A DNA stretch of 63,818 nucleotides from an uncultured Candidatus Saccharibacteria bacterium (GTDB lineage Bacteria; Patescibacteriota; Minisyncoccia; Phycocordibacterales; CSBR16-119). The notes beneath the pieces were generated by a model, which worked only from the letters and a program-made list of their open reading frames with translations, was not told the origin of the DNA and did no database searches. How positions within the stretch are numbered: position 1 is the stretch's first letter; each line of letters starts with the position of its first letter. The position numbers and the translations under genes were made by a program. The stretch is taken from the NCBI GenBank assembly GCA_964581035.1, contig CAZOLO010000004.1, forward strand, positions 1 through 63,818, written 5' to 3'. Shown in pieces: positions 4,928 to 36,031 of the stretch.

Positions 4928-5869
4928 ATGGAAGCCCCAAAAAAACTATCTATTGTCGTTCCTGTCTTTAATGAAGAGGGTAATGTGGCAAATTTGCATA
5001 AGGAAATTGTAAGTATCTGCAGTATTACTGGTAGAGAATATGAGATTATTTTTATAAATGACGGATCTACTGACAAAACATTAGATGAGTTAAAGAAACT
5101 AAAACCTATTAAAGTTATAAACTTTCGGAAGAACTTTGGTCAAACATCAGCCTTAGATGCAGGGTTTAAAGCCTCAAAAGGAGAATATATTGTAGCTCTA
5201 GATGGTGATGGACAAGATGACCCATCTGAGATGTTGAAACTTATAGAAAAGTTAGAGGAAGATGATTTAGATGTGGTGTCTGCATGGAGGAAAAATAGAG
5301 AGGATAGTTTTAGTAAAAAAGTATCTTCTAAGATGGCTGCTAGACTTAGGAAACATCTTATAAACGATGGAATTCATGATTCAGGGACTTCATTTAAGGT
5401 TTATAAAAAAGAGTGTTTTGAACACATAGATCTTTATGGGGAGATGCATAGATTTATACCCGCAATACTTAAAATAAAAGGATTTAAAATTGGAGAAGTC
5501 GTTGTTAATCACAGAAGAAGAACTTCAGGGCAGACAAAGTATGACTGGTATAGAGGTGTAAAAGGTATATTAGATATGATCTCTGTTTGGTTCTGGATGA
5601 AATTTGCCAATAGGCCACTACACTTGTTTGGAGCAGCCGGGGTATTTATTATGTTCCTAGGAGGGGTTTCGTTTCTATTCGTGCTAGGTCAAAGTATATT
5701 TTTTGGTAAAGATTTGTCTGATACAGCTCTAACAACAATATCCATGTTTTCTATTCTAGGAGGAGCTCAACTGTTTGTTTTCGGATTATTAGCAGATATT
5801 CTTTCTAAGAGCTATTTTTCATCCACCAAAGACACTCCATATGTTGTGAAAGAGGTTATAGATAATTAG
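4928..5869 (+). CDS. GT2 polyprenyl-phosphate glycosyltransferase (GtrB/DPM1/ArnC-like) with two C-terminal TM helices
   Basis: LSIVVPVFNEEGNV, DGSTD and DGDGQDDP motifs. C-terminal hydrophobic helices LHLFGAAGVFIMFLGGVSFLFVLG and ISMFSILGGAQLFVFGLLADIL. Confidence 0.85.
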   Translation: MEAPKKLSIVVPVFNEEGNVANLHKEIVSICSITGREYEIIFINDGSTDKTLDELKKLKPIKVINFRKNFGQTSALDAGFKASKGEYIVALDGDGQDDPSEMLKLIEKLEEDDLDVVSAWRKNREDSFSKKVSSKMAARLRKHLINDGIHDSGTSFKVYKKECFEHIDLYGEMHRFIPAILKIKGFKIGEVVVNHRRRTSGQTKYDWYRGVKGILDMISVWFWMKFANRPLHLFGAAGVFIMFLGGVSFLFVLGQSIFFGKDLSDTALTTISMFSILGGAQLFVFGLLADILSKSYFSSTKDTPYVVKEVIDN

Positions 5870-5933
5870 AAAACATGTTTTTTGTATTATTCAATATCTG
5901 TCAGAATTACAACAAAAGAGTTACACTAGTATT

Positions 5934-6899
5934 ATGAAAGAAAGAATTATTGTTACTGGCGCTGCCGGGTTTATTGGCTCTCATGTGGTAAAGAAACTCC
6001 TGGGTGAAGGGTATTTTGTAATTGGGCTGGATAATATGAATGATTATTATAATCCATTGCAAAAAGAGCAAAACATTAAGCAATTTGATTTATTTGATAA
6101 TTTTTCTTTTTATAAAACAGATATAGAAAATTTTGATGAACTAGAATCAATCTTTGAAAAAGAGGAGCCATCTCTTGTGTGTCATCTGGCGGCTAGAGCA
6201 GGGGTGAGATCTTCAATATTGAGTCCGCAAATTTATGAGTCTACAAATGTTCAAGGGACTATAAATCTTCTAGAATTATCTCGGATTAATGATATTAAGA
6301 ATTTTGTCTATGCTTCTTCTTCTTCTGTATACGGAGATTCAAAAGAATATCCTTTTATCGAAAGTTTGAGTCCGTTACAGCCAAAGTCACCCTATGCTGT
6401 TACAAAGCTTGCTTGTGAGTCTTATGCGCAAACGTATAGCAGGCTGCACGGACTTAATACAACCGGGTTAAGATTCTTTACTGTGTATGGCCCAGCAGCC
6501 AGACCAGATATGGCAACGTTTCTTTTTGTAGATTCGGTCCATAAAGGAAAAGATATAATTCAATATGGCCAGGGGGATACTTTTCGTGACTATACTTTCG
6601 TTGGAGATATTGCTGACGGTGTTTTGGAGGCGGTTAAAAAACCACTTGGTTGTGAAATTATAAATCTTGGTAGGGGTTGCCCAGTGAGCCTTTCTGTTTT
6701 AATAAAAACAATAGAAGATATTATGGGTAAAAAGGCATCAATTAAAATTGAGTCAAAGCAAGATTTTGATTCATCGGGTACTCATGCTGACATAACAAAG
6801 GCAAAAAAACTACTGGGCTATAATCCTAAAACTGACCTGAAGGATGGTTTAGTTGAGTTTGTTAATTGGTATAATGAAAATTATGATATTTTATCTTAG
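5934..6899 (+). CDS. NAD-dependent sugar-nucleotide epimerase (UDP-glucuronate 4-epimerase-like SDR)
   Basis: GAAGFIGSH Rossmann motif, YAVTKLACE (YxxxK), and DNMNDYYNPLQK, which is typical of the UDP-GlcA epimerase group. Confidence 0.8.
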   Translation: MKERIIVTGAAGFIGSHVVKKLLGEGYFVIGLDNMNDYYNPLQKEQNIKQFDLFDNFSFYKTDIENFDELESIFEKEEPSLVCHLAARAGVRSSILSPQIYESTNVQGTINLLELSRINDIKNFVYASSSSVYGDSKEYPFIESLSPLQPKSPYAVTKLACESYAQTYSRLHGLNTTGLRFFTVYGPAARPDMATFLFVDSVHKGKDIIQYGQGDTFRDYTFVGDIADGVLEAVKKPLGCEIINLGRGCPVSLSVLIKTIEDIMGKKASIKIESKQDFDSSGTHADITKAKKLLGYNPKTDLKDGLVEFVNWYNENYDILS

Positions 6900-6905
6900 C
6901 TTATT

Positions 6906-8030
6906 ATGAAAGTCACTCTTATAGTTCCAACAATGTTTGTGTCAGATAGAGGTACATCCATGAGAATTCAGGGTCAAGTTGAGGCTCTGGTAAAAAAAGG
7001 CTTTGGAGTTACAATTCTCACTTATGGTGTAGGTAGGACACCAGATAATTTAAGCAGTCAGCTATTTAAGATAAAAAGAATTCCAAATGTATTCCCGTGG
7101 TTAGAGAGCATACCGTCTGGATTCAGTTTATATAAAGTTGTTGCAGATATGGCTTTATTTTTCAAAGTATTAGTTTTCCTTTTGGGTGATTCGAGTCGTA
7201 CTATACATGCTTATTTGTACGAAGGGGTCCTAATTTCCTGGCTCGCCACTAATTTCCTTTTTTGGAGAGAGTATAAAATAATAGGCGATTTTCATGGTAG
7301 TTTGACTTCAGAAATTAAATTGAAATCAAGATTAGGTGGATATTTGTTGAAAAAAATTGAATCTTTTGTCCATGCTATTCCATACAAGGTATCGGTAAGC
7401 TCTTTTGAATTAGGTGAATATATTTCAAAGGATAGAATCGATAAGTCAGTGTTTGTTTTTGATGTTCCTTTGGTGGAAAATGGTGGTAGATCTGAACCTA
7501 AATTATCTATTCCAGATGATAAGACTATTGTCACTTATACGGGTGGCTTCGGTTCGGAGAAGGGGATAGACGTTTTGTGTAGACTCATGGTTAATCTTTC
7601 TGATTTAGATAATTTACATTGGATTATTGCAGGGTCTCCAATAGAAAATCTAAAGATACCAAAAGAAGTAGATTCTAAAAAGTATACAATTATAAACCCC
7701 CTTTCAAAAGAAATGCTTTTCAGAGTCTTAAAGGTCTCTGATATTGGTATAGATCCAAAAACGAAGGCTCTGCAGGGAAGCGGTAAATTAGTGAACTATT
7801 TATCTTTTGGCCTACCAACGGTTACTTTTTCTTCTAAAACTATTAATTCTTATTTAAGAGAATTGAGTGGGGAATTATCAGCTAGCTCTGTGGAAGATAT
7901 GGAAGACATACTTAGAAGTCTCATTTTGAATACAGAGAGAAGAAAGAGTATTAGTGTTATTGCTCTCAACAGGGTAGAGAATATTTCTATCAAAAAATTA
8001 GGAGATATTATTGCCGCTCTTTATGTCTAG
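6906..8030 (+). CDS. Glycosyltransferase, GT-B fold (GT4/GT1-like)
   Basis: Size and C-terminal half (TYTGGFGSEKGID...GSGKLVNYLSFGLPTV) resemble GT4 enzymes. Operon context supports the call. Confidence 0.7.
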   Translation: MKVTLIVPTMFVSDRGTSMRIQGQVEALVKKGFGVTILTYGVGRTPDNLSSQLFKIKRIPNVFPWLESIPSGFSLYKVVADMALFFKVLVFLLGDSSRTIHAYLYEGVLISWLATNFLFWREYKIIGDFHGSLTSEIKLKSRLGGYLLKKIESFVHAIPYKVSVSSFELGEYISKDRIDKSVFVFDVPLVENGGRSEPKLSIPDDKTIVTYTGGFGSEKGIDVLCRLMVNLSDLDNLHWIIAGSPIENLKIPKEVDSKKYTIINPLSKEMLFRVLKVSDIGIDPKTKALQGSGKLVNYLSFGLPTVTFSSKTINSYLRELSGELSASSVEDMEDILRSLILNTERRKSISVIALNRVENISIKKLGDIIAALYV

Positions 8031-9057
8031 AATTTCAAACAAAATAAATAATGTAGTTTTGATTGTTTCATATAATGGTAGAGACCATCTTGAAAAACTA
8101 TTACCATCACTATTCGATCAAACTATTTCAAAGGATCTATATAGAGTGGTTGTAGTTGATAATGGGTCTAGTGATACAACCGAGGTATTTCTGGGGAAGA
8201 AATATCCTGAAATTATTTTCATACCATTATCTAAAAATAAAGGTTTTGCTGAGGCAAATAATATAGGCATTAAGTATTCCGCGACCAATTTTGAAGGTCT
8301 GGAAAATATTATATTTCTAAACAATGACACCATGGTCTCTTCTAATTTTTTAGAAATACTTACTGATGGAATTAATAGGCACACTGATGCAGCTTCTGTT
8401 CAAACAAAAATAGTAAGCATGGATTCAAAGACGATAGATAGTGTTGGTATATCTCTACATAGAAGTTTTAATGCGGTTAACACTGGCCAGGGAGAGTTGG
8501 ATACTGGACAGCATGATAATTCTGAGAGAGAAATTTTTGGAACAACAGGTAGTGCTATGATCGCTAAGATTGAAGCTTTGAGGAGTTGTGATCTTGGAGA
8601 TAATAATTATTTCGATAGGTTATATTTTGCTTATAATGAAGATGTAGATCTAGCTTTAAGATTCAGATCGTCTGGATACTCTTCTTGGTATGTTCCAGGG
8701 GCTACAGTTCGGCATGTTCATAGTGCCACAGGGGGTAATCAATCAAAATTTAAAGCCTTTCATAGTCACAGAAACACAATATTTAATATTATTAAAAATG
8801 CCCCAGGTTTTTCTGTGTTTACTACACTTGCAGCATTTGTTGGCTCATATTTTTCTCAAATTAAAAATAATAAAGAAATCAAAACCTCCTTATCAAAATT
8901 AAAGGGGAATATAGGTTCACTTGGTATTATAATGCTTGTTTTAAGGGTTTGGATTTCTGTGATAATCTATATACCGGTAATTCTTCTTAAAAGGTATTTT
9001 CTACAGAGAGGTACAAAGATTGGATTCAAGGATATAAAAAGATGGTTGTATATTTAA
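8023..9057 (+). CDS. GT2 glycosyltransferase (rhamnosyltransferase-like) with C-terminal TM helix
   Basis: VLIVSYNGRDHLEKLLPSL, VVVDNGSSDTT, EDVDLALR. The ATG at 8023 overlaps the upstream stop (ATGTCTAG). The track start at 8011 is a TTG. Confidence 0.8.
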   Translation: MSRISNKINNVVLIVSYNGRDHLEKLLPSLFDQTISKDLYRVVVVDNGSSDTTEVFLGKKYPEIIFIPLSKNKGFAEANNIGIKYSATNFEGLENIIFLNNDTMVSSNFLEILTDGINRHTDAASVQTKIVSMDSKTIDSVGISLHRSFNAVNTGQGELDTGQHDNSEREIFGTTGSAMIAKIEALRSCDLGDNNYFDRLYFAYNEDVDLALRFRSSGYSSWYVPGATVRHVHSATGGNQSKFKAFHSHRNTIFNIIKNAPGFSVFTTLAAFVGSYFSQIKNNKEIKTSLSKLKGNIGSLGIIMLVLRVWISVIIYIPVILLKRYFLQRGTKIGFKDIKRWLYI

Positions 9058-9063
9058 TTTGAT

Positions 9064-9843
9064 ATGAACAAAAAACATGAAAATTACAAAGAGCTAGTTA
9101 TGCGTCTAGCTAAAACTGATTTCAAGTTGAGATATCATGATTCTTTTCTTGGTTATATTTGGGCAATATTGAAACCCCTACTTATATTTACGGTTCTAAA
9201 CTTTGTTTTTTCTTCGATTTTTAATTTTAAAAATTCTGGAACACCTCTTTATTCTCTTGAGCTTTTAACCGCCCTTATGTTGTTCAACTTCTTTGCAGAA
9301 GGTACTACTGCGGGGATGAGGTCTTTAATATCTAAAGCTCAACTGGTTACAAAGACATATGTTCCAAGATGGACTATTGTGGTCTCTTCTACAATAAACT
9401 CGCTGTTTGTTTTTTTGATGAATCTTATTGTTATCATTTTATTTTTTGCAGCGTATGGTGTTCTACCTAGTATAGGAGCCATAATAATATTCTTACTGTT
9501 TGTTGTTCTTTTGTATATTATTGTGCTGGCTTTCTCTTTTTTAACAGCCACAGTCTTTGTAAGATTTAGAGATCTTTCTATGATATGGGAGGTCGTTGTA
9601 ATGATTTTGATGTATATTTCACCAGTTGTTTACCCTCTTTCTTTGATGCCTGAAAATTTGCAAAAGATTATGTTGTTTAATCCACTTGGTTTCATTATCC
9701 ACTTTACAAAACAAGCATTAATATCTGGTCATTTTGCAACAGTATCTCAAATATTTGTTTTAATAGCAGTGATATTTCTATTTATGGGCGGGTCTATTCT
9801 ATGGTTTAATAGAAGTGAAAAAACCATTGCTGAATATATGTAG
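9064..9843 (+). CDS. wzm: ABC-2 type polysaccharide export permease (Wzm/TagG-like)
   Basis: 259 aa with six hydrophobic helices. N-terminal LAKTDFKLRYHDSFLGYIWAILKP motif is typical of ABC-2 glycan exporters. Immediately upstream of the Wzt-type ATPase. Confidence 0.85.
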   Translation: MNKKHENYKELVMRLAKTDFKLRYHDSFLGYIWAILKPLLIFTVLNFVFSSIFNFKNSGTPLYSLELLTALMLFNFFAEGTTAGMRSLISKAQLVTKTYVPRWTIVVSSTINSLFVFLMNLIVIILFFAAYGVLPSIGAIIIFLLFVVLLYIIVLAFSFLTATVFVRFRDLSMIWEVVVMILMYISPVVYPLSLMPENLQKIMLFNPLGFIIHFTKQALISGHFATVSQIFVLIAVIFLFMGGSILWFNRSEKTIAEYM

Positions 9844-9866
9844 AATATGAAATTTTTTAAAAAAAT

Positions 9867-11861
9867 ATGAACAATAAAGAAAAAATTTTTTTTTCGAAAG
9901 AAAAAGATCAGAGCGCTAACATCTCAAATGAAAGAGATTTATTAATTCAACGCATCAAGGGTGTTTTGAAATTAAGAGACATGGATATTAAAAATATAGT
10001 CATTTCAGTTCATATACCAAAAACAGCTGGTTCAACCTTTGCTGGAGTGCTTTCTGAAGAATTGGGAAATAAGATTTTGTTCGTTTATACAGCAGATAAT
10101 GGAAATGGATATTATGTATCAAAAACATTTGCTGATATAGATAGACTTAGAAAGACAGAGGAAGTTGTTGATATGGAAAAAATATTAAGTATTGTAAAAG
10201 AAAATAAAATAAGGTGTATTCATGGTCACGTAAATTTGTCACAAATGGAGAATCTCTTTAAAGGAGAGGGGTTTAATGTCTATGTAATGGCTTTTGTTAG
10301 AGATCCTATACAGAGAGCTTATTCTGAACTTTGTCATAAAAAAATATATGATTTAGACAAAAGGTCAGATATTGATATTTTGGAATCAACAGGGAATAAT
10401 ATATCCTCATTTATTGGTGGATATTCTCTATTAAATAATATTTGTTTTTTTCATACTGAGAATTTTGAAGATGCGATGGGCTCATTATCGCTTTCCTGGG
10501 GTGGTTTTATGAGAAATGTAAACAAAAAAAATAGTAATATTGAATTTAATAAGAGTCTCTTAGAAAAATATAATTCAAAAGACATTGAAATTTATGAAAG
10601 AATACTAAATTTTTTTCCTCGACATGCCAAGAAGAAGAACTCTGGATCTATCGCTATTTCGGCTTTTGGTGTATATAAGAGTTTCAAAATCCCCCTAGAT
10701 AAAATAGACTCTTTAAGGGGCTTGTTTATTTCAATATTTAAGAAAAAAACTTTTGAGAAATTTTTTGCCCTAAGTGATGTTTCATTTGAGATAAACAGGG
10801 GCGAGTTTTTTGGTATTGTTGGAAGTAACGGAAGTGGTAAATCTACTTTACTTAAAATTCTTTCTGGAGTTTATACTCCTAATTTAGGTGGTATCTCTAT
10901 AAAAGGAGCAGTCTCCCCATTTCTAGAGTTAGGAATAGGTTTTAATCCAGAACTTTCTGGTAGAGATAATATATATTTGAATGCTACAGTTTTGGGGTTA
11001 ACAAAAGACCAAGTGGATAAAAAATTTGATCAAATTGTTGATTTTTCTGAACTCGGTCGTTTTATAGATCAAAAAATAAAAAATTATTCTTCTGGTATGC
11101 AGGTTAGATTGGCTTTTTCAGTTTCAATTCATGCAAATAGAGAGATATTATTGATGGACGAAGTTTTGGCTGTTGGAGATGCATCATTTCAGGCAAAATG
11201 CATGAAGGAGTTTTATAGATATAAAAAAGAGGGTAAAACTGTTGTTTTGGTTTCCCACAATCTTTCTGTAATTGAACAGTATTGTGACAGGGCGCTTTTC
11301 TTAGATTCTGGTGAGGTTATTGCTATAGGTGACGCACGTGAAGTTGTCCAAAAATACAGAAATAAAACAGCAGAGAAATTTGCCATTACTCAGGCTAAAG
11401 AATCAGTAAAGCCAAGATCTGATCAATCCCTAGCGGAGGAGATAATATCTAAAAAAGTTGAAATAAAAAGAGTAACTTTTTACGATGGAGAAAATAACAA
11501 AAGACATCTTTTTACAACAGGGTCTGATTTGGTTGTGAGGGTTAAATTTGATGACCGGTTAAGTAGGGATGAAGATTTAAACTTTGGTGTCGCTATCTTT
11601 AGTGAGAAGAATACGTATATTTTAGGAGTAAATACAATTCTAGATAAAGTGGACTGTCGTAAATCTAGAGATAATGGATATTTTGAGATTTCGTACAAAA
11701 ATATACCTCTTAAAAATGGATCTTACTATGTTTCAGTTGGCTTGTTTGGTGAAGATGATTCCATTGTTTATGATTTTATGAATCAGTCTTCTTTTTTTGA
11801 GGTTATTTCTCCTGATCAAAATCATGGAATGGTTGACATAGGATATAGTTGGATTGTATAA
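9867..11861 (+). CDS. wzt: Three-module protein: N-terminal sulfotransferase-like domain, Wzt/TagH ABC ATPase, and C-terminal Wzt_C-type carbohydrate-binding beta-sandwich
   Basis: Sulfotransferase 5'-PSB-like HIPKTAGSTF and 3'-PB-like FVRDPIQRAYSE (aa ~45-250). Walker A GSNGSGKST, signature YSSGMQVRL, Walker B ILLMDEVLAVGD. C-terminal ~135 aa (IKRVTFYDGENN...LKNGSYYVSVGLF) matches the Wzt C-domain pattern. Confidence 0.85.
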   Translation: MNNKEKIFFSKEKDQSANISNERDLLIQRIKGVLKLRDMDIKNIVISVHIPKTAGSTFAGVLSEELGNKILFVYTADNGNGYYVSKTFADIDRLRKTEEVVDMEKILSIVKENKIRCIHGHVNLSQMENLFKGEGFNVYVMAFVRDPIQRAYSELCHKKIYDLDKRSDIDILESTGNNISSFIGGYSLLNNICFFHTENFEDAMGSLSLSWGGFMRNVNKKNSNIEFNKSLLEKYNSKDIEIYERILNFFPRHAKKKNSGSIAISAFGVYKSFKIPLDKIDSLRGLFISIFKKKTFEKFFALSDVSFEINRGEFFGIVGSNGSGKSTLLKILSGVYTPNLGGISIKGAVSPFLELGIGFNPELSGRDNIYLNATVLGLTKDQVDKKFDQIVDFSELGRFIDQKIKNYSSGMQVRLAFSVSIHANREILLMDEVLAVGDASFQAKCMKEFYRYKKEGKTVVLVSHNLSVIEQYCDRALFLDSGEVIAIGDAREVVQKYRNKTAEKFAITQAKESVKPRSDQSLAEEIISKKVEIKRVTFYDGENNKRHLFTTGSDLVVRVKFDDRLSRDEDLNFGVAIFSEKNTYILGVNTILDKVDCRKSRDNGYFEISYKNIPLKNGSYYVSVGLFGEDDSIVYDFMNQSSFFEVISPDQNHGMVDIGYSWIV

Positions 11862-11906
11862 AATGTTTTTTTGTCAAGGAGGACAATACTCTTAATTTTT
11901 GGTAGG

Positions 11907-14900
11907 ATGATTTTTATGAAATGGAGATATTTTAAGCCTGTATTTTCTTATCAGGAATCGTTTGATGATGGGGCTTCTGCCTGGTCTGGGCATCGTTATT
12001 TTGCATATGACTTAATTAGAAATATTAAGCCTGAAGTAATTGTTGAGTTAGGGTCTTACAAGGGTACGTCTTTTTTTTCAATGTGTCAGGCTGTTAAGGA
12101 TGATCTTTATTTATCTAAAGGACTTTTTCCAGTTGACGCATGGGTGGGTGATGAGCACACAGGTTTTTATGACTCATCAATTTACTTAGATTTCATAAAG
12201 ATTAAAGATAAGCATTATGATCAGCTGCCTATAAAACCAATTAAAAAGACTTTTGACGAATCTGTTGGTCTTTTTGAAGATAACTCCATAGATCTTCTTC
12301 ATATAGACGGTTTGCATACCTATGAAGCTGTGAAGCATGATTTTGAGCTTTGGCTACCAAAAATGAAGCAAGATGGGGTGGTTCTTTTTCATGATATTAA
12401 GGTTAAAGAGGGTGACTTTGGGGTGTATCAGTTTTGGGGTGAGATAAAGAATGATTATTTTTCTTTAGAATTTGACCACTCTTTTGGCTTGGGGGTTTTA
12501 TTTTTAAAAGATTTCGATAATTCTATATTGAGAGATGGGGAGGAGCTAAAGATGCACTACTCTTTTTCTCATGAGATGAACAATATTCTATCTATTGAGC
12601 AAAAAGAAAGGGAAATGATAGAACATAGGTCTAAATTTCTGGGCAAGATAGATTTTTTGGAAAAATCAATATCAGATTATTATGAAGAGAAAGAAAAATT
12701 AGAAGGTCAATTTATAAGAATTAAAGAAGAAAAGAATCAGCTTGAAATTGAATTATTATCTTTGAGAGAAAAGGTGGGTGTTTTTGGTTCACGTATTAAT
12801 AGGATGAGTGAAGATATTGCATTAAAAGAAAAAGAGATGGCTGGCAAGGATATAGACCTTGCTATAAAGATCTCTGAAAAAGAAATGCTTATTTCTCAAT
12901 TAGAAAAACAGAGAGAGGTTTTTTTTAATGAGTACCAAGATATCCAAAAAGAGTTAATATCTAGTGTTGGTTTAATAAACAAAAAAGATTTAATCTTGAA
13001 AAATAAAGAAGATGAAATATTGGCAATCTTAAAAAAGCATGAAAAAGATTTAGAGATGGTAAACCTCTCTAAGGTTTCTGAGATTAAAAATAGAGATGAA
13101 ATTATTGAAAACCTCAACAAAGACCTTAATAATAAAAGAGAATCAATTTCTTTGGTTGAACAACAGCTTGATTTATCGAATAGGGAAATAGATAGCCTTA
13201 ATAATAGTATTATTTCGTATCAAGAAATTGTGGCTAGGATGCAAGCCTCAAGCTTTTGGAAAATTAGAAGGGTTTACTTGAATGCTAAATGGGCGATAAC
13301 TAACCCTTATGGATTTTTGAAAAAATATTTGCTAAATAGATTGCCTGGATACCCTCAGATCTATTGGGCGATAACTAACCCTATAAAATATTATAAGAAA
13401 TATCACAAAAGATTTTTGATTACCAAATCCCTGGAGCTTGGTAATAGAGAGGAAAAAGTTGAATTATCCTCTGTTTTTTTTGAATCTGCTAATGATTATA
13501 TAGAAGAAATGCTTAAGCAGTATAAGCATAACAAAAGTGATTATAAAAATATATTCAAGAAAGTTGAGCCGTTTGCTATATACTTCCCACAGTTTCATTT
13601 TATTGAAGAAAATAGAAAATCTTTTTATGAAGGGTATCATGACATGATTAATTTGGCTCATGCAAAAGATGTAAATCCAAACATAGAGTCACCACTTAGT
13701 AGCCCCCTTGGGATGTATGATCTTTCTGAGAATAGAAATATAATTCCAATTCAGATTGAGACTGCGAAAGCATATGGTTTTAAGGGTTTTGGAGTGTACT
13801 ATTATTGGTTTAGTGAAAATTCATCAACTGGAAATAACATGCTAATGAAAGATGTTGTTGATCAATTTTTTATCAAAGATAATGATGGTTTCGAGATATT
13901 CTTTATTTATGCAAATGAAAGTTGGAGTGACAATGTTTCTTTTAATCAAAACTTGAGCGATACGGTTATAAGAAATAAGTACAACGAAACTTCAATTAAG
14001 AAGAATATAAAAAACTTAATTCCATATTTTAAAAACAAAAACTACAAAAAGGTTAATAATAAGCCTGTGTTCTTCATATATCATTCATGGGAAATGACAG
14101 ATAAAGAAATTAAAATTTTCCAAAAGATTGGAGATTCTATGCTTAAAGAAGAAGGGTTTTCTGGTTTGGAGCTGGTTATCAATTCTAATAAAAAGAAATA
14201 CAAGGAGAATGTAAATTATGTACACAATCCAAACTATAAAACTAAGGAGGTCTCAAGTTTTATGTTTCAAGAAAAGGGTGTTAATTATATAGATTACAAA
14301 AAATATTTTGAAGATTATATTTCTAGATCTTTTTCTAAAGAAAATGACATTTTGTCGGTTTTCTATAATTTTGACAATACTATAAGACTGTTTTTCCATG
14401 AAAACAGATCTCAGCATTTAACCAAAACACTTAATAACAATATAGAAAGTTTTAAAAAATTTATCAAAATGCAACTTTCTAAATATTCAAAAAGATCAGG
14501 TGTTTCAAAAATATTTTTAGTTAATTCTTGGAATGAGTGGGGAGAACAGATGGCAATTGAGCCAAGTGAAGAATCTGGATTCAGGCTACTTAATGCTTGG
14601 AGAGAAGCGCTAATGAATAGCTTTGCTACAGAATCTGGGCCACAGAAAGAGGAAAGACTAAATCAATGGCATCCTAAGATATCAATAATAACCCCTACAT
14701 TTAATTCTGGGGAAACCTTAGAAGATTGCATAAAAAGTATAGTGGGCCAGTCTTATAAGAATATTGAGCATGTAATAATAGACAAGATGTCTACTGATAA
14801 CACTTTAGATATCATAAATAAGTATAAGAAAAAATATAAACATATTAAGGTCTTTTCCCAGAATGATTCTGGTATTTATGATGCTATGAATATTGGATTA

Positions 14901-15335
14901 GATCTATGTGAAGGGGATTGGGTTCACTTTTTAGGAAGTGATGACATTCTGTATTCAAATGACACCTTGAGTAAAGTTGTAAAAAATATCTCGTCCGACT
15001 TGGATGTTGTATATGGAAATGTTGTGTGGGGGAACAGCGGCAAGGTTTACGATGGAGCATTTGATAAAATTAAGTTATCTCAGAAAAACATTTGCCACCA
15101 AGCCATGTTCACCAGAAAAGATTTATTTAAAAAGATTGGAAAATTCAATAAAAAATATACAGCTACAGCTGATTGGGAATTTAATATGAGATGGTTTGGT
15201 AGAGAAGACGTTAAAAGTAGATATTTGGATATTATTATTGCGAAATATTGCACAGAGGGATTTTCCTCAAAAAACGAAGACCTAATAATGATAAAGGATC
15301 ATGAAGAAATCGTAAAAAAATATCTATCGATATGA
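11907..15335 (+). CDS. Giant multidomain glycan-assembly protein: class I SAM methyltransferase, ~230-aa coiled coil, WbsX-like domain, GT2 domain
   Basis: N-terminal VIVELGSYKGTSFF...LLHIDGLHTYEAV...VVLFHDI. Heptad-rich K/E/L region at nt ~12553-13260. FAIYFPQFHFIEEN...NSWNEWGEQMAIEP (WbsX-type). ISIITPTFNSGETL...IIDKMSTDNT...GSDD (GT2). Start uncertain (ATG 11907 or 11916; TTG 11871). Confidence 0.85.
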   Translation: MIFMKWRYFKPVFSYQESFDDGASAWSGHRYFAYDLIRNIKPEVIVELGSYKGTSFFSMCQAVKDDLYLSKGLFPVDAWVGDEHTGFYDSSIYLDFIKIKDKHYDQLPIKPIKKTFDESVGLFEDNSIDLLHIDGLHTYEAVKHDFELWLPKMKQDGVVLFHDIKVKEGDFGVYQFWGEIKNDYFSLEFDHSFGLGVLFLKDFDNSILRDGEELKMHYSFSHEMNNILSIEQKEREMIEHRSKFLGKIDFLEKSISDYYEEKEKLEGQFIRIKEEKNQLEIELLSLREKVGVFGSRINRMSEDIALKEKEMAGKDIDLAIKISEKEMLISQLEKQREVFFNEYQDIQKELISSVGLINKKDLILKNKEDEILAILKKHEKDLEMVNLSKVSEIKNRDEIIENLNKDLNNKRESISLVEQQLDLSNREIDSLNNSIISYQEIVARMQASSFWKIRRVYLNAKWAITNPYGFLKKYLLNRLPGYPQIYWAITNPIKYYKKYHKRFLITKSLELGNREEKVELSSVFFESANDYIEEMLKQYKHNKSDYKNIFKKVEPFAIYFPQFHFIEENRKSFYEGYHDMINLAHAKDVNPNIESPLSSPLGMYDLSENRNIIPIQIETAKAYGFKGFGVYYYWFSENSSTGNNMLMKDVVDQFFIKDNDGFEIFFIYANESWSDNVSFNQNLSDTVIRNKYNETSIKKNIKNLIPYFKNKNYKKVNNKPVFFIYHSWEMTDKEIKIFQKIGDSMLKEEGFSGLELVINSNKKKYKENVNYVHNPNYKTKEVSSFMFQEKGVNYIDYKKYFEDYISRSFSKENDILSVFYNFDNTIRLFFHENRSQHLTKTLNNNIESFKKFIKMQLSKYSKRSGVSKIFLVNSWNEWGEQMAIEPSEESGFRLLNAWREALMNSFATESGPQKEERLNQWHPKISIITPTFNSGETLEDCIKSIVGQSYKNIEHVIIDKMSTDNTLDIINKYKKKYKHIKVFSQNDSGIYDAMNIGLDLCEGDWVHFLGSDDILYSNDTLSKVVKNISSDLDVVYGNVVWGNSGKVYDGAFDKIKLSQKNICHQAMFTRKDLFKKIGKFNKKYTATADWEFNMRWFGREDVKSRYLDIIIAKYCTEGFSSKNEDLIMIKDHEEIVKKYLSI

Positions 15336-17158
15336 AAAAATTCTCAATTATAATCCCTGCATTTAAGGGTAAATATCTGAAGACGGCAATAGATTCTGTA
15401 CTCAACCAGTCATATTCTGATTTTGAGCTGGTTGTTTATAACGATGGTTCTCCAGATGATATTTCTAGAATCGTTAAATCCTATAATGATCATCGAATAC
15501 AGTATTATAGCGGTGGCGATAATATTGGTAAAGATTTCCCAACAAGAGCATGGAATAAGGCTGTTGGTATGTCAGTTGGTGAATATATATGTCTTTTGGG
15601 GGACGATGATTTTTTGTCTTTAAATTTTCTAGAGGAGATTTCAGCTTTAATTTTGAAGTATCCAGAGAATAATATATTTAGATCTAAGGTGAATAGAGTT
15701 GACGAAAAAGGAGAAATTATATTTTTTGGAGAGACACTTCCTGAGGAGGAGTCTTGGATGGAATTCCTTTTCCAAAGAAACGTGAATAAGAGAATGCAGT
15801 CCACTTGTGAATTCGTCTTAAAGAAGGAGGCCCTTATTGCTGCTGGGGGTTATAAAGATTTTCCCAGAGCATGTGGTAGTGATGATGTGGCATATTTGCT
15901 TATCGCAAGAGATAGGGGGGTTGTATCAACAAATGGAACCATTGCATATTGGAGAAAACACCATCTAAATATTTCAGATAATGATAGCGATGATATGAAT
16001 GCTTATAAAGTTAGATTTTTTATGGAATGGGAAAGACAATTTTTTAATAGAGAATTCTTTTTGAATCTTCCAAGAAAGGTAGAAGAAAAAGATCTTGTGG
16101 CAGATTTACAAAATAAAATTATGGATCTAGAATGGCAAATTAAAGGTCAAGGGCTTCATTTTGGTTCAAATGGCTGCTTGTCTTTTTTAAAAACTAAATT
16201 TTTATCAAGAAGATTTTTTAAGGGTTCTAGTCTAAAAAATAAAAAAATCTATAAGAAAAAAGTTCTATATATAGGTCACTCTTATCACAACAAGACAAAA
16301 TCAAACAGTTTTTTCATGGACTATTTGAAGGATTTTTATGATGTTGAAGTTTTATCTGATGAATCTTGGATGGGGGGTACATATCCAGATCTAAAGTTTG
16401 TCGATAGTTCTTATCATGCAGTTATATTTTGGCAAAATTTACCTGGACCAGAAATTGTAAAAAAAATAAATAATAATAATCTTGTATTTTTCCCAATGTA
16501 CGATGCCGTGGTGGGGTCTGAATTTAATTTTGATGATAGATATAAGCAAATGAAGATTATAAACTTTTCTAAGAAATCTCATGAAGAATTTTCCTCAAGA
16601 GGATTTAATTCTATGTATATTCAGTATTTCCCGGAGCCCAGAGATTTTACTCCAGGTAAAAGTAACAAAGCTTTCTTTTGGCAGAGAATAAGTAAAATTA
16701 ATGTTAATAATATTATTAATTTGTTTGGTAGTCAGAAAATTCAGATTTACTTACATAAGGCTGTAGATCCAGGGAATGAATTTGTGGAGCCAAAGAAAAA
16801 GGATATCAATAGCTTTAACTTTGTAATCTCTGATTGGTTTGGCTCTAAAGAAGAGATGGTTGATTATATTGAAGATCTAGGTATATACGTTGCCCCTAGA
16901 GAATTTGAAGGTATAGGAATGTCATTTTTGGAAGCCATGTCTATGGGTAAAGCTGTTATTGCTGTAGATAAGCCTACTATGAATGAATATATAGAAAATA
17001 ACAAGAACGGATACTTATATGATCTAGACAATATAAAGAATATAGATTTTTCTAATATAGAAGAAATTCAAAAGAATGCACACTCTTTTATTAAAAAGGG
17101 TTATAATATATGGATGAAGAGGCGCTTTAAGATTATAGATTTTATAGAAAATAAATAA
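15332..17158 (+). CDS. Dual-domain glycosyltransferase (N-terminal GT2, C-terminal GT4/GT-B)
   Basis: FSIIIPAFKGKYLKTAIDSVLNQSY...YNDGSPDD...LGDDD, then C-terminal EGIGMSFLEAMSMGKAVIA...NGYLY (EX7E-type). ATGA overlap with the upstream gene. Confidence 0.85.
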   Translation: MKKFSIIIPAFKGKYLKTAIDSVLNQSYSDFELVVYNDGSPDDISRIVKSYNDHRIQYYSGGDNIGKDFPTRAWNKAVGMSVGEYICLLGDDDFLSLNFLEEISALILKYPENNIFRSKVNRVDEKGEIIFFGETLPEEESWMEFLFQRNVNKRMQSTCEFVLKKEALIAAGGYKDFPRACGSDDVAYLLIARDRGVVSTNGTIAYWRKHHLNISDNDSDDMNAYKVRFFMEWERQFFNREFFLNLPRKVEEKDLVADLQNKIMDLEWQIKGQGLHFGSNGCLSFLKTKFLSRRFFKGSSLKNKKIYKKKVLYIGHSYHNKTKSNSFFMDYLKDFYDVEVLSDESWMGGTYPDLKFVDSSYHAVIFWQNLPGPEIVKKINNNNLVFFPMYDAVVGSEFNFDDRYKQMKIINFSKKSHEEFSSRGFNSMYIQYFPEPRDFTPGKSNKAFFWQRISKINVNNIINLFGSQKIQIYLHKAVDPGNEFVEPKKKDINSFNFVISDWFGSKEEMVDYIEDLGIYVAPREFEGIGMSFLEAMSMGKAVIAVDKPTMNEYIENNKNGYLYDLDNIKNIDFSNIEEIQKNAHSFIKKGYNIWMKRRFKIIDFIENK

Positions 17159-17195
17159 GCCTCTGACTAAATTAAAAACTAGAAATATTTAAATT

Positions 17196-18056
17196 TTGAA
17201 TAACGAAGATCAAAATAATCAAGAATTAGAGTTTGTACCATCTGGTCATTATTTTTCGCCGTCTCCATCTATTAAAGAAATAATATCTAAAGAAAATACA
17301 ATATGGGGTGAAATGCCAAAAGAGATCCCTGGGATAAACCTAAATACAGATGGTCAGTTTGACCTACTGGATAAGTTAGAAGTTTTCTATAAAGATATAC
17401 CCTTTGAGGATCAAAAAAAAGATGGCCTGCGTTATTACTTCGACAATAATGCTTATGGTTATTCGGATGCAATCTTTTTATACTTTATGATTAGATATCT
17501 TAGACCTAAGAGGGTTATAGAAGTAGGGTCGGGATTTTCTTCGTGTGTTATTTTAGACACCAATGAGTTATTTTTTGATTCAAAGATAAACGTTTCTTTC
17601 ATAGAGCCTTATCCTGAGCTTTTGAAGTCTTTGATTAAAGAATCAGATCTTTTGAATAACATGCTCCATTCATCTGGAGTACAAGATGTTCCGCTATCTT
17701 TTTTTGAGTCCTTAGAGTCTGGTGATATATTATTTATAGACTCTACACATGTCTCAAAGATTGGAAGTGATGTGAATTATATAATACACAAAGTACTCCC
17801 AGTTCTTGCATCTGGAGTTCATGTTCATTTTCATGATATCTTTTACCCATTTGAATACCCTAAAGAGTGGGTTATAGAAGAAAGGAGATTTTGGAATGAG
17901 CAATACTTATTAAGGGCTTTTTTAGAATTCAACTCAGAATATGAGATAGTAATCTTTAACACTTATTTGGAGTATTTATTCAGATCTAAATTAGAAGAAA
18001 GGTTTCCTCTTATTTTTAAGAATCCTGGTGGAAGTATCTGGATAAAAAGAAAATAG
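17196..18056 (+). CDS. Class I SAM-dependent methyltransferase (same subtype as the N-terminus of the 11907-15335 protein)
   Basis: PSGHYFSP N-terminal motif, VIEVGSGFSSCV, ILFIDSTHVSKIGSDV, VHVHFHDIFYPFEYP. TTG start at 17196; there is no in-frame ATG upstream of the conserved N-terminus. Confidence 0.75.
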   Translation: MNNEDQNNQELEFVPSGHYFSPSPSIKEIISKENTIWGEMPKEIPGINLNTDGQFDLLDKLEVFYKDIPFEDQKKDGLRYYFDNNAYGYSDAIFLYFMIRYLRPKRVIEVGSGFSSCVILDTNELFFDSKINVSFIEPYPELLKSLIKESDLLNNMLHSSGVQDVPLSFFESLESGDILFIDSTHVSKIGSDVNYIIHKVLPVLASGVHVHFHDIFYPFEYPKEWVIEERRFWNEQYLLRAFLEFNSEYEIVIFNTYLEYLFRSKLEERFPLIFKNPGGSIWIKRK

Positions 18057-18066
18057 CCAATAAAAA

Positions 18067-19698: not shown

Positions 19699-19700
19699 AT

Positions 19701-22015: not shown

Positions 22016-22069
22016 GAAGATTGATATGTGTCCAACTTGTCTAGGCATTATACTACAATACCAAACTCT

Positions 22070-36030: not shown

Positions 36031-36031
36031 C

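What the first reader, a model, noticed from the sequence alone, without database searches (positions are those of the whole stretch)
9867..11861. Wzt-type ABC ATPase fused at its N-terminus to a sulfotransferase-like domain while keeping a C-terminal carbohydrate-binding domain
The 664-aa product has three modules. Aa ~45-250 carry the two PAPS-binding signatures of sulfotransferases (HIPKTAGSTF and FVRDPIQRAYSE). Aa ~265-500 form a canonical Wzt/TagH nucleotide-binding domain. The last ~135 aa match the Wzt C-terminal beta-sandwich. In the E. coli O8/O9a systems that sandwich recognises the chain-terminating modification before export. Known terminators (methyl or phosphomethyl by WbdD, beta-Kdo by WbbB) are separate proteins. 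A modifying domain fused directly to the exporter ATPase would couple capping and export in one polypeptide. It also suggests sulfate as the terminal export signal. I do not recall this architecture being described.
Basis: partly seen in the sequence, partly recalled or inferred. Interest (0 to 1): 0.7.

Follow-up and report, generated by a model that had tools for sequence, protein, structure and literature searches.

The report
Sulfotransferase domain fused to glycan exporter ATPase
In a probable candidate-phyla-radiation bacterium, the ATPase of a cell-surface sugar-polymer export pump carries a sulfate-adding enzyme domain at its front end; the fusion is real and rare, but sulfate is more likely an extra decoration than the polymer's export signal.

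Summary
ORF 9867..11861 (+) encodes 664 aa with three modules: a sulfotransferase-like domain (aa ~41-252), a complete Wzt nucleotide-binding domain (aa 267-500) and a Wzt_C carbohydrate-binding module (aa 527-664).

The N-domain scores below Pfam's cut-off on its own. Its family profile, however, hits heparan sulfate 6-O- and 2-O-sulfotransferases (E 3e-14, 4e-9). The PAPS-binding Lys, the PxxRxxS motif and the catalytic His are invariant in 117 relatives.

The fusion is not an artefact. The exact protein lies on 11 contigs, and three diverged orthologues (46-57% identity) share the architecture. It is rare, and I found no description of it.

The claim that sulfate is the export signal read by the CBM is not supported.
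- CBM similarity does not follow the fusion.
- An unfused close relative has the same gene cluster.
- All 11 related loci inspected carry a methyltransferase right after wzt.
- Here that methyltransferase heads a methyltransferase / coiled-coil / glycosyltransferase protein, laid out like the K. pneumoniae O7 terminator.
- Free-standing relatives of the sulfotransferase often sit beside Wzm/Wzt genes, and in several of these Wzt has no room for a CBM.

Best reading: a sulfotransferase tethered at the exporter's entrance decorates the glycan, and a methyl cap licenses export. No PAPS-synthesis gene lies in the window. One orthologue's cluster has an APS kinase.

The parts
9064..9843 (+). Wzm, the ABC-2 permease partner of the exporter (259 aa)
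   Evidence: PF01061 ABC2_membrane, E 2.2e-17. Weak NCBIfam Wzm/KpsM hits. It lies 23 nt upstream of the fusion gene, in the same order as in L001, L004 and L005.
9867..11861 (+). Whole fusion ORF, 664 aa: sulfotransferase-like domain, then Wzt NBD, then Wzt_C CBM
   Evidence: The exact product is called on 11 contigs. Orthologues P0008, P0009 and P0010 share the architecture.
9867..9986 (+). N-terminal leader, aa 1-40, absent from the orthologues; the start codon is uncertain (M1, or M39 at 9981)
   Evidence: P0008 and P0010 start about 28 aa later in alignment A1. Model confidence is low here, with pLDDT block means of 35-69. Sequence read.
9987..10622 (+). Sulfotransferase-like domain (Sulfotransfer_2 family), aa ~41-252
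   Evidence: PF03567 at 17-18 bits, below the cut-off of 22. Family profile vs PDB: HS6ST E 3.4e-14, HS2ST E 4e-9. AF2 model has mean pLDDT 79.5 and pTM 0.78, with 91-96 over most of aa 41-160. Top Foldseek hits are sulfotransferases but weak (E ~5e-4, TM 0.33-0.40).
10011..10040 (+). 5'-phosphosulfate-binding (PSB) strand-loop-helix, HIPKTAGSTF, with Lys52
   Evidence: H49, P51, K52 and G55 are invariant in 117 relatives. The motif aligns to HS2ST 'VPKTASTSF' and HS6ST 'HIQKTGGTTF'. The model places a strand at aa 43-48 and a helix at aa 55-69. The conserved PSB lysine is a defining feature (PMC11625862).
10221..10229 (+). H119-G120-H121, the candidate catalytic base
   Evidence: G120 and H121 are invariant and H119 is at least 90% conserved in 117 relatives. 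The triplet aligns to the HS2ST H140-G-H142. HS2ST His142 is the putative catalytic base, and H142A retains <1% activity (PMC6094399).
10293..10328 (+). 3'-phosphate-binding (PB) strand-turn-helix, FVRDPIQRAYSE (PxxRxxS)
   Evidence: R145, P147, R150 and S153 are invariant in 117 relatives. The PxxRxxS consensus is given for PF03567 (PMC11625862). The model places a strand at aa 137-144 and a helix at aa 147-157.
10623..10664 (+). Basic, Ser/Gly-containing linker HAKKKNSGSIAISA (aa 253-266) between the sulfotransferase domain and the NBD
   Evidence: pLDDT <50 for aa 253-273 in the N-domain model. Unfused homologues begin at about this point in alignment A1.
10665..11366 (+). Wzt nucleotide-binding domain, aa 267-500. 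Includes the gate-helix region (aa ~270-295), Walker A GSNGSGKST (10821..10847), signature YSSGM (11085..11099), Walker B LLMDE (11148..11162) and H-loop VSH (11250..11258)
   Evidence: ABC_tran E 1.4e-20. TagH/Wzt NCBIfam models. Aligned to A. aeolicus Wzt from residue 6. Gate-helix position taken from PMC6379404. Coordinates checked.
11367..11444 (+). Variable hinge between NBD and CBM, aa 501-526
   Evidence: Only 10-30% identity between homologues here, against ~70% in the NBD.
11445..11861 (+). Wzt_C carbohydrate-binding module, aa 527-664, plus the stop codon
   Evidence: PF14524 at 72.8 bits, cut-off 30.4. The GVNT Asn, equivalent to A. aeolicus Asn313, is conserved in 110 of 120 relatives. 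Pocket equivalents: Aa L300/T346/A348/H350 correspond to A576/S623/G625/F627.
11871..15335 (+). Candidate chain terminator plus polymerase, 1154 aa: Methyltransf_24 (aa 58-176), ~240-aa helical/coiled-coil spacer (aa ~230-470), WbsX GT (aa 568-909), GT2 (aa 938-1067)
   Evidence: Pfam. The spacer has 0 Pro in 241 aa, is E/I/K/L-rich, and has heptad a/d hydrophobic occupancy of 0.67 against 0.51-0.60 elsewhere. A single-sequence AF2 model shows helices at aa 220-324 and 330-477, at low confidence. The layout matches K. pneumoniae O7 ORF6 (PMC11231755).
4928..9057 (+). Upstream glycan-assembly genes of the same cluster: GT2, NAD-dependent epimerase/dehydratase, GT4-like, GT2
   Evidence: Pfam. 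The genes are tightly packed on the same strand.
15332..20426 (+). Downstream genes of the cluster: GT2+GT4 protein, Methyltransf_24 protein, a 543-aa ORF with no family hit, and a class I SAM methyltransferase
   Evidence: Pfam. No NCBIfam hit for the 543-aa ORF. The order of a ~550-aa unknown ORF followed by a methyltransferase recurs in L001.

Best explanation
The gene encodes the ATPase subunit of a Wzm/Wzt ABC exporter for a lipid-linked cell-surface glycan. The host is a low-GC bacterium, probably of the candidate phyla radiation. A PAPS-dependent carbohydrate O-sulfotransferase domain (Sulfotransfer_2 family, related to HS2ST and HS6ST) is fused to the N-terminus of Wzt through a short basic linker.

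Shown:
- the three modules;
- intact PAPS-binding and catalytic residues;
- conservation of the fusion in a small clade;
- the cluster context.

Inferred:
- The Wzt N-terminus leads directly into the gate helix at the cytosolic mouth of the channel. The two sulfotransferase domains of a Wzt dimer would therefore sit at the site where the polymer is recruited and threaded.
- There they would sulfate the finished or nearly finished glycan, using PAPS, immediately before or during export.
- The export licence read by the C-terminal CBM is most likely a methylated non-reducing end. It would be installed by the methyltransferase at the tip of the coiled-coil protein encoded directly downstream (11871..15335), not by sulfate.
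- The fusion is thus a rare single-polypeptide form of a frequent gene neighbourhood (wzm, wzt, sulfotransferase). It adds an accessory anionic decoration rather than a new termination signal.
For: Architecture.

Sulfotransferase identity:
- Homologues carry PF03567.
- The family profile hits HS6ST (E 3.4e-14) and HS2ST (E 4e-9).
- K52, H121, R145, P147, R150 and S153 are invariant in 117 relatives.
- They are retained in orthologues whose N-domains are only 30-34% identical while their NBDs are ~70% identical.
- H121 aligns to the HS2ST catalytic base His142.
- The model has the PSB strand-loop-helix and the PB strand-turn-helix, and the top fold hits are sulfotransferases.

The fusion is real and conserved:
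- 11 contigs carry the exact protein.
- P0008, P0009 and P0010 share the architecture.
- The fused N-domains are each other's best hits (113-133 bits, against <=50 bits for any free-standing relative), which points to one ancestral fusion.

PAPS supply in the clade: a bona fide APS kinase (TIGR00455, 243 bits, cut-off 138.7) lies 6 kb upstream of fused P0010.

Link to glycan export: 10 of 26 free-standing relatives with >=10 kb of flank have a Wzt-like NBD within 3 kb. A. salmonicida has the order wzt, sulfotransferase-domain ORF, wbbB. Sulfated capsules made by ABC-transporter pathways are known.

Position at the channel entrance: the window sequence aligns from A. aeolicus Wzt residue 6. The gate helix, formed between NBD strands 1 and 2, sits at the proposed substrate entry site.

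Methyl cap rather than sulfate cap.
Against: - The window sequence alone is below the Pfam gathering threshold, and the fold-search matches are weak. Nucleotide kinases of the same fold class score similarly.
- No APS kinase, ATP sulfurylase or CysDN is present anywhere in the 63.8-kb window, nor in the 20 kb held around P0008. No ATP sulfurylase was seen in any related locus.
- Candidate-phyla-radiation genomes are small, so a complete PAPS route is not assured (my own knowledge).
- The acceptor, the site of sulfation (along the chain or at the terminus) and the ligand of the CBM are all inferred. CBM pocket residues differ from the A. aeolicus methyl-binding pocket at four of the five positions compared; only the Asn313 equivalent is kept.
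- The placement near the gate helix rests on sequence position only. No model of the complex was made.
Confidence: 0.55

Rival explanations
1. First reader's model. The fused sulfotransferase is the chain terminator. It puts a sulfate on the non-reducing end, and the CBM of the same polypeptide reads that sulfate, so capping and export are coupled in one protein.
For: - A modifying domain and a cap-reading CBM share one polypeptide, conserved in at least three diverged orthologues.
- Known caps include an anionic group (methyl-phosphate).
- CBM-bearing Wzt relatives P0064 and P0068 have an APS kinase directly downstream. Sulfur chemistry is therefore linked to capped-type exporters in this clade.
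- Fused P0010 has a CBM of that type and an APS kinase nearby.
Against: - CBM similarity does not follow the fusion.
- Unfused P0011 has a 51%-identical CBM in the same cluster layout without any sulfotransferase.
- No residue in the CBM is exclusive to the fused proteins. The two candidates (K534, H547) are shared with unfused P0011-13 and lie outside the sheet that binds the cap in A. aeolicus.
- Every locus inspected keeps a methyltransferase next to wzt. Here it sits at the end of a coiled-coil protein, where terminators sit in all characterised systems.
- Free-standing relatives often accompany Wzt proteins with no room for a CBM.
Confidence: 0.15
2. The N-domain no longer transfers sulfate. 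It would serve as a PAP(S)- or nucleotide-binding regulatory module, or as a docking scaffold for the assembly enzymes at the transporter.
For: - No PAPS-synthesis gene lies in 63.8 kb.
- The N-domain evolves much faster than the NBD (30-34% against ~70% identity).
- The Pfam score is sub-threshold.
Against: - All residues needed for PAPS binding and catalysis are invariant across the fused clade and 117 relatives.
- An inactive domain would be expected to lose H121 or K52.
- One fused orthologue has an APS kinase in its cluster.
Confidence: 0.1
3. The domain is an active sulfotransferase but acts on something other than the exported glycan chain. Candidates are the lipid-linked primer, another envelope molecule or a protein. 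The fusion would only ensure membrane-proximal localisation.
For: - Fold search also returns tyrosylprotein and small-molecule sulfotransferases.
- The acceptor-binding parts of sulfotransferases are not conserved (PMC11625862), so the acceptor cannot be read from sequence.
Against: - The family's gene neighbourhood points to ABC-exported glycans.
- The best solved relatives are polysaccharide O-sulfotransferases.
- The gene sits inside a glycan-assembly operon.
Confidence: 0.08
4. Artefact. Two separate genes (a sulfotransferase and wzt) were joined by a frameshift, a sequencing error or a chimeric assembly.
For: None found. The only hint is that the usual arrangement elsewhere is separate genes.
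Against: - The identical 664-aa ORF was assembled on 11 contigs from different samples.
- Orthologues at 46-57% identity keep one continuous frame.
- No Met lies in the window's linker region, where unfused homologues begin.
Confidence: 0.01

Closest known systems
A. aeolicus WzmWzt O-antigen exporter with a cap-reading CBD (PDB 8dku, 7k2t, 6an5; PMC9445017, PMC6379404)
   Same: - NBD plus C-terminal CBM, aligned over residues 6-352 (E 2.4e-65).
- Adjacent Wzm permease.
- The N-terminal gate-helix region and the sugar-contacting Asn of the CBM (GxNT) are conserved.
- A methyltransferase lies in the cluster, consistent with a methyl cap like the A. aeolicus 3-O-methyl-Man/Rha cap.
   Different: - The window protein has ~262 extra N-terminal residues forming a sulfotransferase domain.
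- The host is probably a monoderm-like candidate-phyla-radiation bacterium, so the product is not LPS O antigen (inference).
- Methyl-pocket residues differ: L300/T346/A348/H350 correspond to A/S/G/F.
K. pneumoniae O7 ORF6, and the WbdD (O3/O9a) and WbbB (O12) coiled-coil terminators, with CBM-bearing Wzt (PMC11231755)
   Same: - The gene directly downstream of the fusion (11871..15335) has the O7 ORF6 layout: N-terminal methyltransferase, long coiled coil, two C-terminal GT modules.
- The exporter carries a CBM, as in all terminated systems.
   Different: - No kinase domain lies between the methyltransferase and the coiled coil, so a plain methyl cap is expected rather than methyl-phosphate (inference).
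- In the characterised systems read here, no modifying enzyme is reported as part of Wzt; here a sulfotransferase is.
Heparan sulfate 2-O- and 6-O-sulfotransferases (PDB 3f5f, 4ndz, 5t03), Pfam Sulfotransfer_2
   Same: - PSB motif with Lys, PB motif PxxRxxS, and the HGH catalytic triplet in the same order and register.
- The acceptors are polysaccharides.
   Different: - Very low sequence identity.
- The window sequence alone is below the Pfam cut-off.
- The bacterial domain is cytoplasmic and fused to an ABC ATPase.
- The acceptor is unknown.
Unfused wzm, wzt, sulfotransferase neighbourhoods, for example the A. salmonicida O-antigen cluster (wzt, ORF19 sulfotransferase-domain protein, wbbB; PMC4483657) and many metagenomic loci
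   Same: - The same two functions lie side by side in ABC-transporter-dependent glycan clusters.
- Some loci also carry an APS kinase: L015, L028, L074.
   Different: - The genes are separate, usually with the sulfotransferase after wzt, and Wzt often lacks a CBM.
- In the window the sulfotransferase is in frame before the NBD, between wzm and wzt.
- No sulfate was found in the A. salmonicida O antigen.
Sulfated capsular polysaccharides made by KpsMT ABC-transporter pathways (for example Cobetia marina KMM 1449; PMC11766843)
   Same: A cytoplasmic PAPS-dependent sulfation step is combined with ABC-transporter export of a lipid-linked polymer.
   Different: - That cluster encodes the full PAPS route (cysNC, cysD, cysQ, sulfate permease) and a separate sulfotransferase.
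- The exporter is KpsMT, with no CBM or cap reported there.
- None of this PAPS machinery is in the window.

Membership tests
Sulfotransfer_2 (PF03567) PAPS-dependent carbohydrate sulfotransferases | Score above the Pfam gathering threshold | tested here: not met
   17.0-17.8 bits against a cut-off of 22 for the window N-domain alone. Orthologue P0008 has a precomputed PF03567 hit, marked faint. Nearly all of the best 120 of the 1249 profile-search relatives carry PF03567.
Sulfotransfer_2 (PF03567) PAPS-dependent carbohydrate sulfotransferases | 5'-phosphosulfate-binding strand-loop-helix with a conserved Lys | tested here: met
   HIPKTAGSTF with K52. H49, P51, K52 and G55 are invariant in 117 relatives. 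It aligns to the HS2ST and HS6ST PSB motifs. The model has a strand at aa 43-48 and a helix at aa 55-69. The definition comes from PMC11625862.
Sulfotransfer_2 (PF03567) PAPS-dependent carbohydrate sulfotransferases | 3'-phosphate-binding strand-turn-helix with PxxRxxS | tested here: met
   P147-I-Q-R150-A-Y-S153. R145, P147, R150 and S153 are invariant. The model has a strand at aa 137-144 and a helix at aa 147-157. Consensus from PMC11625862.
Sulfotransfer_2 (PF03567) PAPS-dependent carbohydrate sulfotransferases | Catalytic base His | tested here: met
   H121 is invariant and aligns to HS2ST His142. H142A retains <1% activity (PMC6094399). This rests on alignment only.
Sulfotransfer_2 (PF03567) PAPS-dependent carbohydrate sulfotransferases | Sulfotransferase fold | tested here: inconclusive
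   The AF2 model has pLDDT 79.5 and pTM 0.78. The top Foldseek hits are SULT1A3, SULT7A1, TPST2 and HS6ST, but with E ~5e-4 and TM 0.33-0.40. Nucleotide kinases of the same fold class score similarly.
Sulfotransfer_2 (PF03567) PAPS-dependent carbohydrate sulfotransferases | PAPS-dependent sulfate transfer, and a PAPS supply in the cell | not testable with these tools
   No APS kinase or sulfurylase lies in the 63.8-kb window. An APS kinase is present in the cluster of orthologue P0010. The rest of the genome is not available.
Wzt, the CBM-bearing ATPase of Wzm/Wzt glycan ABC exporters | ABC nucleotide-binding domain of the Wzt/TagH type with Walker A, signature, Walker B and H-loop | tested here: met
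   ABC_tran E 1.4e-20. TagH/Wzt NCBIfam models score E 1e-63 to 2e-53, below their equivalog cut-offs, as expected for a distant lineage. A. aeolicus Wzt E 2.4e-65. Motifs located.
Wzt, the CBM-bearing ATPase of Wzm/Wzt glycan ABC exporters | N-terminal gate-helix extension between NBD strands 1 and 2 | tested here: met
   Aa 267-302 align to A. aeolicus residues 6-38. The aromatic at the Tyr11 position (F273) and Lys at the Lys12 position (K274) are kept. K271, F273, P276, R284, F287, F291 and K292 are invariant in the clade. Tyr14 is replaced by Pro.
Wzt, the CBM-bearing ATPase of Wzm/Wzt glycan ABC exporters | C-terminal Wzt_C carbohydrate-binding module | tested here: met
   PF14524 at 72.8 bits, cut-off 30.4, aa 527-658.
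Wzt, the CBM-bearing ATPase of Wzm/Wzt glycan ABC exporters | Adjacent ABC-2 permease (Wzm) within a glycan-assembly cluster | tested here: met
   Wzm at 9064..9843. GT, epimerase and methyltransferase genes span 4928..22048.
Wzt, the CBM-bearing ATPase of Wzm/Wzt glycan ABC exporters | Export depends on a terminal cap bound by the CBM | not testable with these tools
   Only context is available: a methyltransferase / coiled-coil / GT protein lies directly downstream. The CBM ligand was not determined.

The most novel reading that the evidence does not exclude
The exporter licenses its own cargo. The sulfotransferase domain fused to Wzt installs a terminal sulfate (alone, or on a methylated end sugar), and the CBM of the same polypeptide reads it. 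Capping, quality control and export would then be done by one protein, with sulfate as a new kind of export signal.
Probability: 0.15. Interest if true: 0.75.

Novelty: new variant of a known kind. Interest (0 to 1): 0.45.

Why it matters
ABC-transporter-dependent glycan assembly is understood as a set of separable modules: polymerase, coiled-coil ruler with terminator, and exporter with a cap-reading CBM. A modifying enzyme built into the exporter ATPase adds a further arrangement.

It places a decoration step at the channel entrance. This raises a testable question: is a polymer decorated as it is threaded, or only before recruitment?

The fusion also acts as a Rosetta-stone link. It ties a large, uncharacterised bacterial branch of the Sulfotransfer_2 family to Wzm/Wzt-exported glycans. 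Very few bacterial polysaccharide sulfotransferases have been characterised (PMC11625862).

It further suggests that some candidate-phyla-radiation bacteria display sulfated, methyl-capped surface glycans. That is relevant to how these episymbionts present themselves to hosts. These consequences are inferences; no chemistry has been shown.

Tried and rejected
1. Basic pocket residue as a marker of a sulfate cap. K or R at the position equivalent to A. aeolicus Thr346 occurs in P0010, P0064 and P0068, which all have an APS kinase nearby. Two further K-type loci (L093, L094) have no APS kinase, and K/R is the majority state (64 of 120). The correlation was dropped.

2. Fusion-specific CBM residues. 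K534 and H547 are shared by all four fused proteins and are rare elsewhere. They also occur in the nearest unfused relatives (P0011-13), and they lie in strands 1 and 2, away from the sheet that binds the cap in A. aeolicus. I read them as phylogenetic signal.

3. Full-length structure prediction. MAFFT misaligned all free-standing sulfotransferases in the combined alignment A5: none had K52, H121 and R145 in register. The job was not run.

4. The CBM alone against PDB sequences gave no meaningful hit.

5. The single-sequence AF2 model of the downstream protein was poor (pLDDT 43). I use it only for the long helices.

6. The GTDB species-representative genomes yielded no fused relative, only one weak Rhodococcoides hit. 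The pattern-based scan has limited sensitivity.

7. The exhaustive search of 1.84 billion representatives showed no other sulfotransferase-fused Wzt in the top 150. Long hits were tandem-NBD proteins or other fusions.

8. Organism naming failed. The nearest named Wzt relatives are from Candidatus Moranbacteria MAGs.

9. Literature searches found no description of the fusion: Wzt plus sulfotransferase; Patescibacteria plus sulfotransferase; DUF4915.

10. tRNA and Rfam scans of the window found four tRNA genes and nothing that bears on the finding.

Full report
**Observation**

The window has an ATG-initiated ORF at 9867..11861 (+) of 664 aa, exactly as described.

- Pfam finds ABC_tran (aa 302-433, E 1.4e-20) and Wzt_C (aa 527-658, 72.8 bits, cut-off 30.4).
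- NCBIfam TagH/Wzt models cover aa 269-500.
- Aa 267-628 align to residues 6-352 of full-length A. aeolicus Wzt (8dku, E 2.4e-65).

The protein is therefore a complete Wzt with about 262 additional N-terminal residues.

**Is the N-domain a sulfotransferase?**

On its own it fails Pfam's threshold: Sulfotransfer_2 at 17-18 bits against a cut-off of 22. It has no direct PDB sequence match. The indirect evidence is strong.

- Its six direct homologues in a database of 5.8 billion clusters include three PF03567 proteins.
- A profile of these sequences recovers 1249 proteins, nearly all PF03567, some named 'sulfotransferase family 2 domain-containing protein'.
- In a 117-sequence alignment the invariant residues are H49, P51, K52, G55, G120, H121, R145, P147, R150, S153, N236 and D239.
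- The profile of that alignment hits heparan sulfate 6-O-sulfotransferase (E 3.4e-14) and 2-O-sulfotransferase (E 4e-9). PKT aligns with the PAPS-binding loop, HGH with the HS2ST H140-G-H142, and RDPxxRxxS with the 3'-phosphate site.
- His142 is the putative catalytic base of HS2ST, and H142A retains <1% activity (PMC6094399).
- The Lys of the PSB loop and the PxxRxxS motif are the features that define the family (PMC11625862).
- An AlphaFold2 model (pLDDT 79.5, pTM 0.78) has the expected strand-loop-helix and strand-turn-helix elements.
- Its best PDB fold matches are sulfotransferases, but weakly (E ~5e-4, TM 0.33-0.40), and nucleotide kinases of the same fold class score similarly.

I conclude that the domain belongs to a divergent bacterial branch of the Sulfotransfer_2 family and keeps a complete catalytic apparatus.

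**Is the fusion real, and how common is it?**

- The identical 664-aa product is called on 11 contigs from several samples.
- The same architecture is present in P0008 (632 aa, 51% identity, three samples), P0010 (640 aa, 47%) and the truncated P0009.
- The three fused N-domains are only 30-34% identical to each other, while their NBDs are ~70% identical. Even so, they are each other's best matches by a wide margin: 113-133 bits against <=50 bits for any free-standing relative. This fits a single ancestral fusion followed by fast divergence, with the active-site residues retained.
- All other close Wzt relatives are 400-470 aa without the domain. Several are from Candidatus Moranbacteria MAGs.
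- An exhaustive search of 1.84 billion representatives found no further sulfotransferase-fused Wzt among the best 150.
- A pattern scan of 185,579 species-representative genomes found none.
- Other enzyme-to-Wzt fusions do exist, namely NBD+TylF methyltransferase and NBD+Wzt_C+DUF4915.
- The literature held here does not describe the fusion.

**Context**

The gene sits in a tightly packed glycan-assembly cluster on the + strand. The gene order is:

| Coordinates | Product |
|---|---|
| 4928..9057 | GT2, epimerase/dehydratase, GT4-like, GT2 |
| 9064..9843 | Wzm |
| 9867..11861 | the fusion |
| 11871..15335 | 1154-aa protein: Methyltransf_24, ~240-aa spacer, WbsX GT, GT2 |
| 15332..20426 | GT2+GT4 protein, further methyltransferases, unknown 543-aa ORF |

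The spacer of the 1154-aa protein is proline-free and E/I/K/L-rich, and is predicted helical. This layout of methyltransferase, coiled coil and two GT modules is that of K. pneumoniae O7 ORF6. In every characterised system the terminator sits at the distal end of such a coiled-coil ruler, and the Wzt CBM reads the terminal group (PMC11231755; PMC9445017).

**Does the CBM read sulfate?**

Several results argue against it.

- CBM similarity does not follow the fusion. The window CBM is 61% identical to fused P0008, 51% to unfused P0011 and 36% to fused P0010. The P0010 CBM ranks 117th of 119 relatives.
- Unfused P0011 lies in the same cluster layout, with a Methyltransf_24-GT protein downstream and no sulfotransferase.
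- All 11 related loci inspected carry a methyltransferase gene or domain right after wzt: directly in nine, and after an intervening APS-kinase/DUF4915 pair in L090 and L092. Sulfotransferase, APS kinase and DUF4915 are variable extras.
- No CBM residue is exclusive to the fused proteins.
- Among free-standing relatives of the sulfotransferase with at least 10 kb of flank, 10 of 26 have a Wzt-like NBD within 3 kb. The usual order is wzm, wzt, sulfotransferase, and in several the gap after the NBD leaves no room for a CBM.
- A published precedent for the unfused arrangement is A. salmonicida: wzt, a sulfotransferase-domain ORF, wbbB (PMC4483657).

Sulfation is thus a recurrent accessory of ABC-exported glycans and does not require a cap-reading module.

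**Mechanism proposed**

In A. aeolicus Wzt the gate helix is formed between NBD strands 1 and 2, close to the N-terminus. It sits at the cytosolic mouth of the channel, at the proposed binding site for the lipid-linked substrate (PMC6379404). The window's sulfotransferase domain ends about 14 residues before the equivalent of A. aeolicus residue 6 and is joined by a basic linker of low predicted order.

I therefore infer that two sulfotransferase domains per transporter are held at the entry site. There they would sulfate the polymer, using PAPS, just before or while it is threaded. The CBM would recognise the methylated end made by the downstream coiled-coil protein. The position of sulfation (along the chain or at the end) is unknown.

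**Weak points**

- No APS kinase, ATP sulfurylase or CysDN is found anywhere in the 63.8-kb window or near P0008.
- The cluster of fused P0010 does carry a bona fide APS kinase (TIGR00455, 243 bits, cut-off 138.7). No sulfurylase was seen in any locus.
- The rest of the genome is not available.
- The CBM pocket differs from the A. aeolicus methyl pocket at four of the five positions compared; only the Asn313 equivalent is kept. The ligand is therefore not established.

**Verdict**

The architecture is a rare and, as far as I could find, undescribed variant of a known system. The more striking reading, sulfate as the export signal, is not excluded but is disfavoured. I give it about 0.15.

Noticed in passing
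L090 6001-11747 and L092 6001-9771 (relatives P0064 and P0068); P0355: In two unfused candidate-phyla-radiation relatives the gene order is: wzt (NBD+Wzt_C), a bona fide APS kinase (TIGR00455 195 bits in L090, cut-off 138.7), DUF4915/TIGR03032 (~295 aa, function unknown), then Methyltransf_24. No Sulfotransfer_2 homologue lies within 6 kb. P0355 is a Wzt NBD+Wzt_C+DUF4915 fusion. DUF4915 may be an uncharacterised APS- or PAPS-using glycan modifier linked to cap-reading exporters. No paper in the library mentions DUF4915.
   Followed up: partly
window 41848..44673 (+): The 941-aa leucyl-tRNA synthetase carries a NUDIX domain hit (PF00293, E 7.9e-14) at aa 382-498, inserted just after the editing domain. 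This is an unusual insertion.
   Followed up: no
window 11871..15335 (+): A 1154-aa protein with Methyltransf_24, a ~240-aa proline-free helical spacer, a WbsX-type GT and a GT2. This is the layout of coiled-coil terminator-polymerase proteins such as K. pneumoniae O7 ORF6, found here in a probable candidate-phyla-radiation bacterium.
   Followed up: partly
P0252 (589 aa, from the representative search): A Wzt-type NBD with a TylF/Methyltransf_24 O-methyltransferase in place of the CBM at the C-terminus. This is another case of a modifying enzyme fused to the exporter ATPase.
   Followed up: no
window 18067..19698 (+); L001 18201-19856: A 543-aa ORF with no Pfam or NCBIfam hit is conserved in position between the glycosyltransferases and a class I methyltransferase. 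It is 551 aa in the P0008 locus, where the last GT protein directly precedes it; in the window a Methyltransf_24 gene (17196..18056) intervenes. It is an unassigned component of the cluster.
   Followed up: no
L032, L033, L061, L078, L079 (metagenome loci): Free-standing relatives of the sulfotransferase domain often occur as tandem pairs, directly after wzm-wzt in L032, L061 and L078. This suggests two sulfation specificities per glycan.
   Followed up: no
window 9867..9986: The start codon of the fusion gene is ambiguous. M1 gives a 40-aa leader absent from the orthologues. M39 (ATG at 9981) would give a 626-aa protein, closer in length to P0008 (632 aa) and P0010 (640 aa). Gene callers chose M1 on all contigs shown.
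   Followed up: partly
window 33853..37435 (+) and 56317..56763 (+): A TraG/TrwB-like coupling ATPase (725 aa) is followed by a lamin-tail-domain plus PKD protein. Separately, a 148-aa ORF matches Pfam only at aa 83-140, the RNA polymerase alpha C-terminal domain.
   Followed up: no
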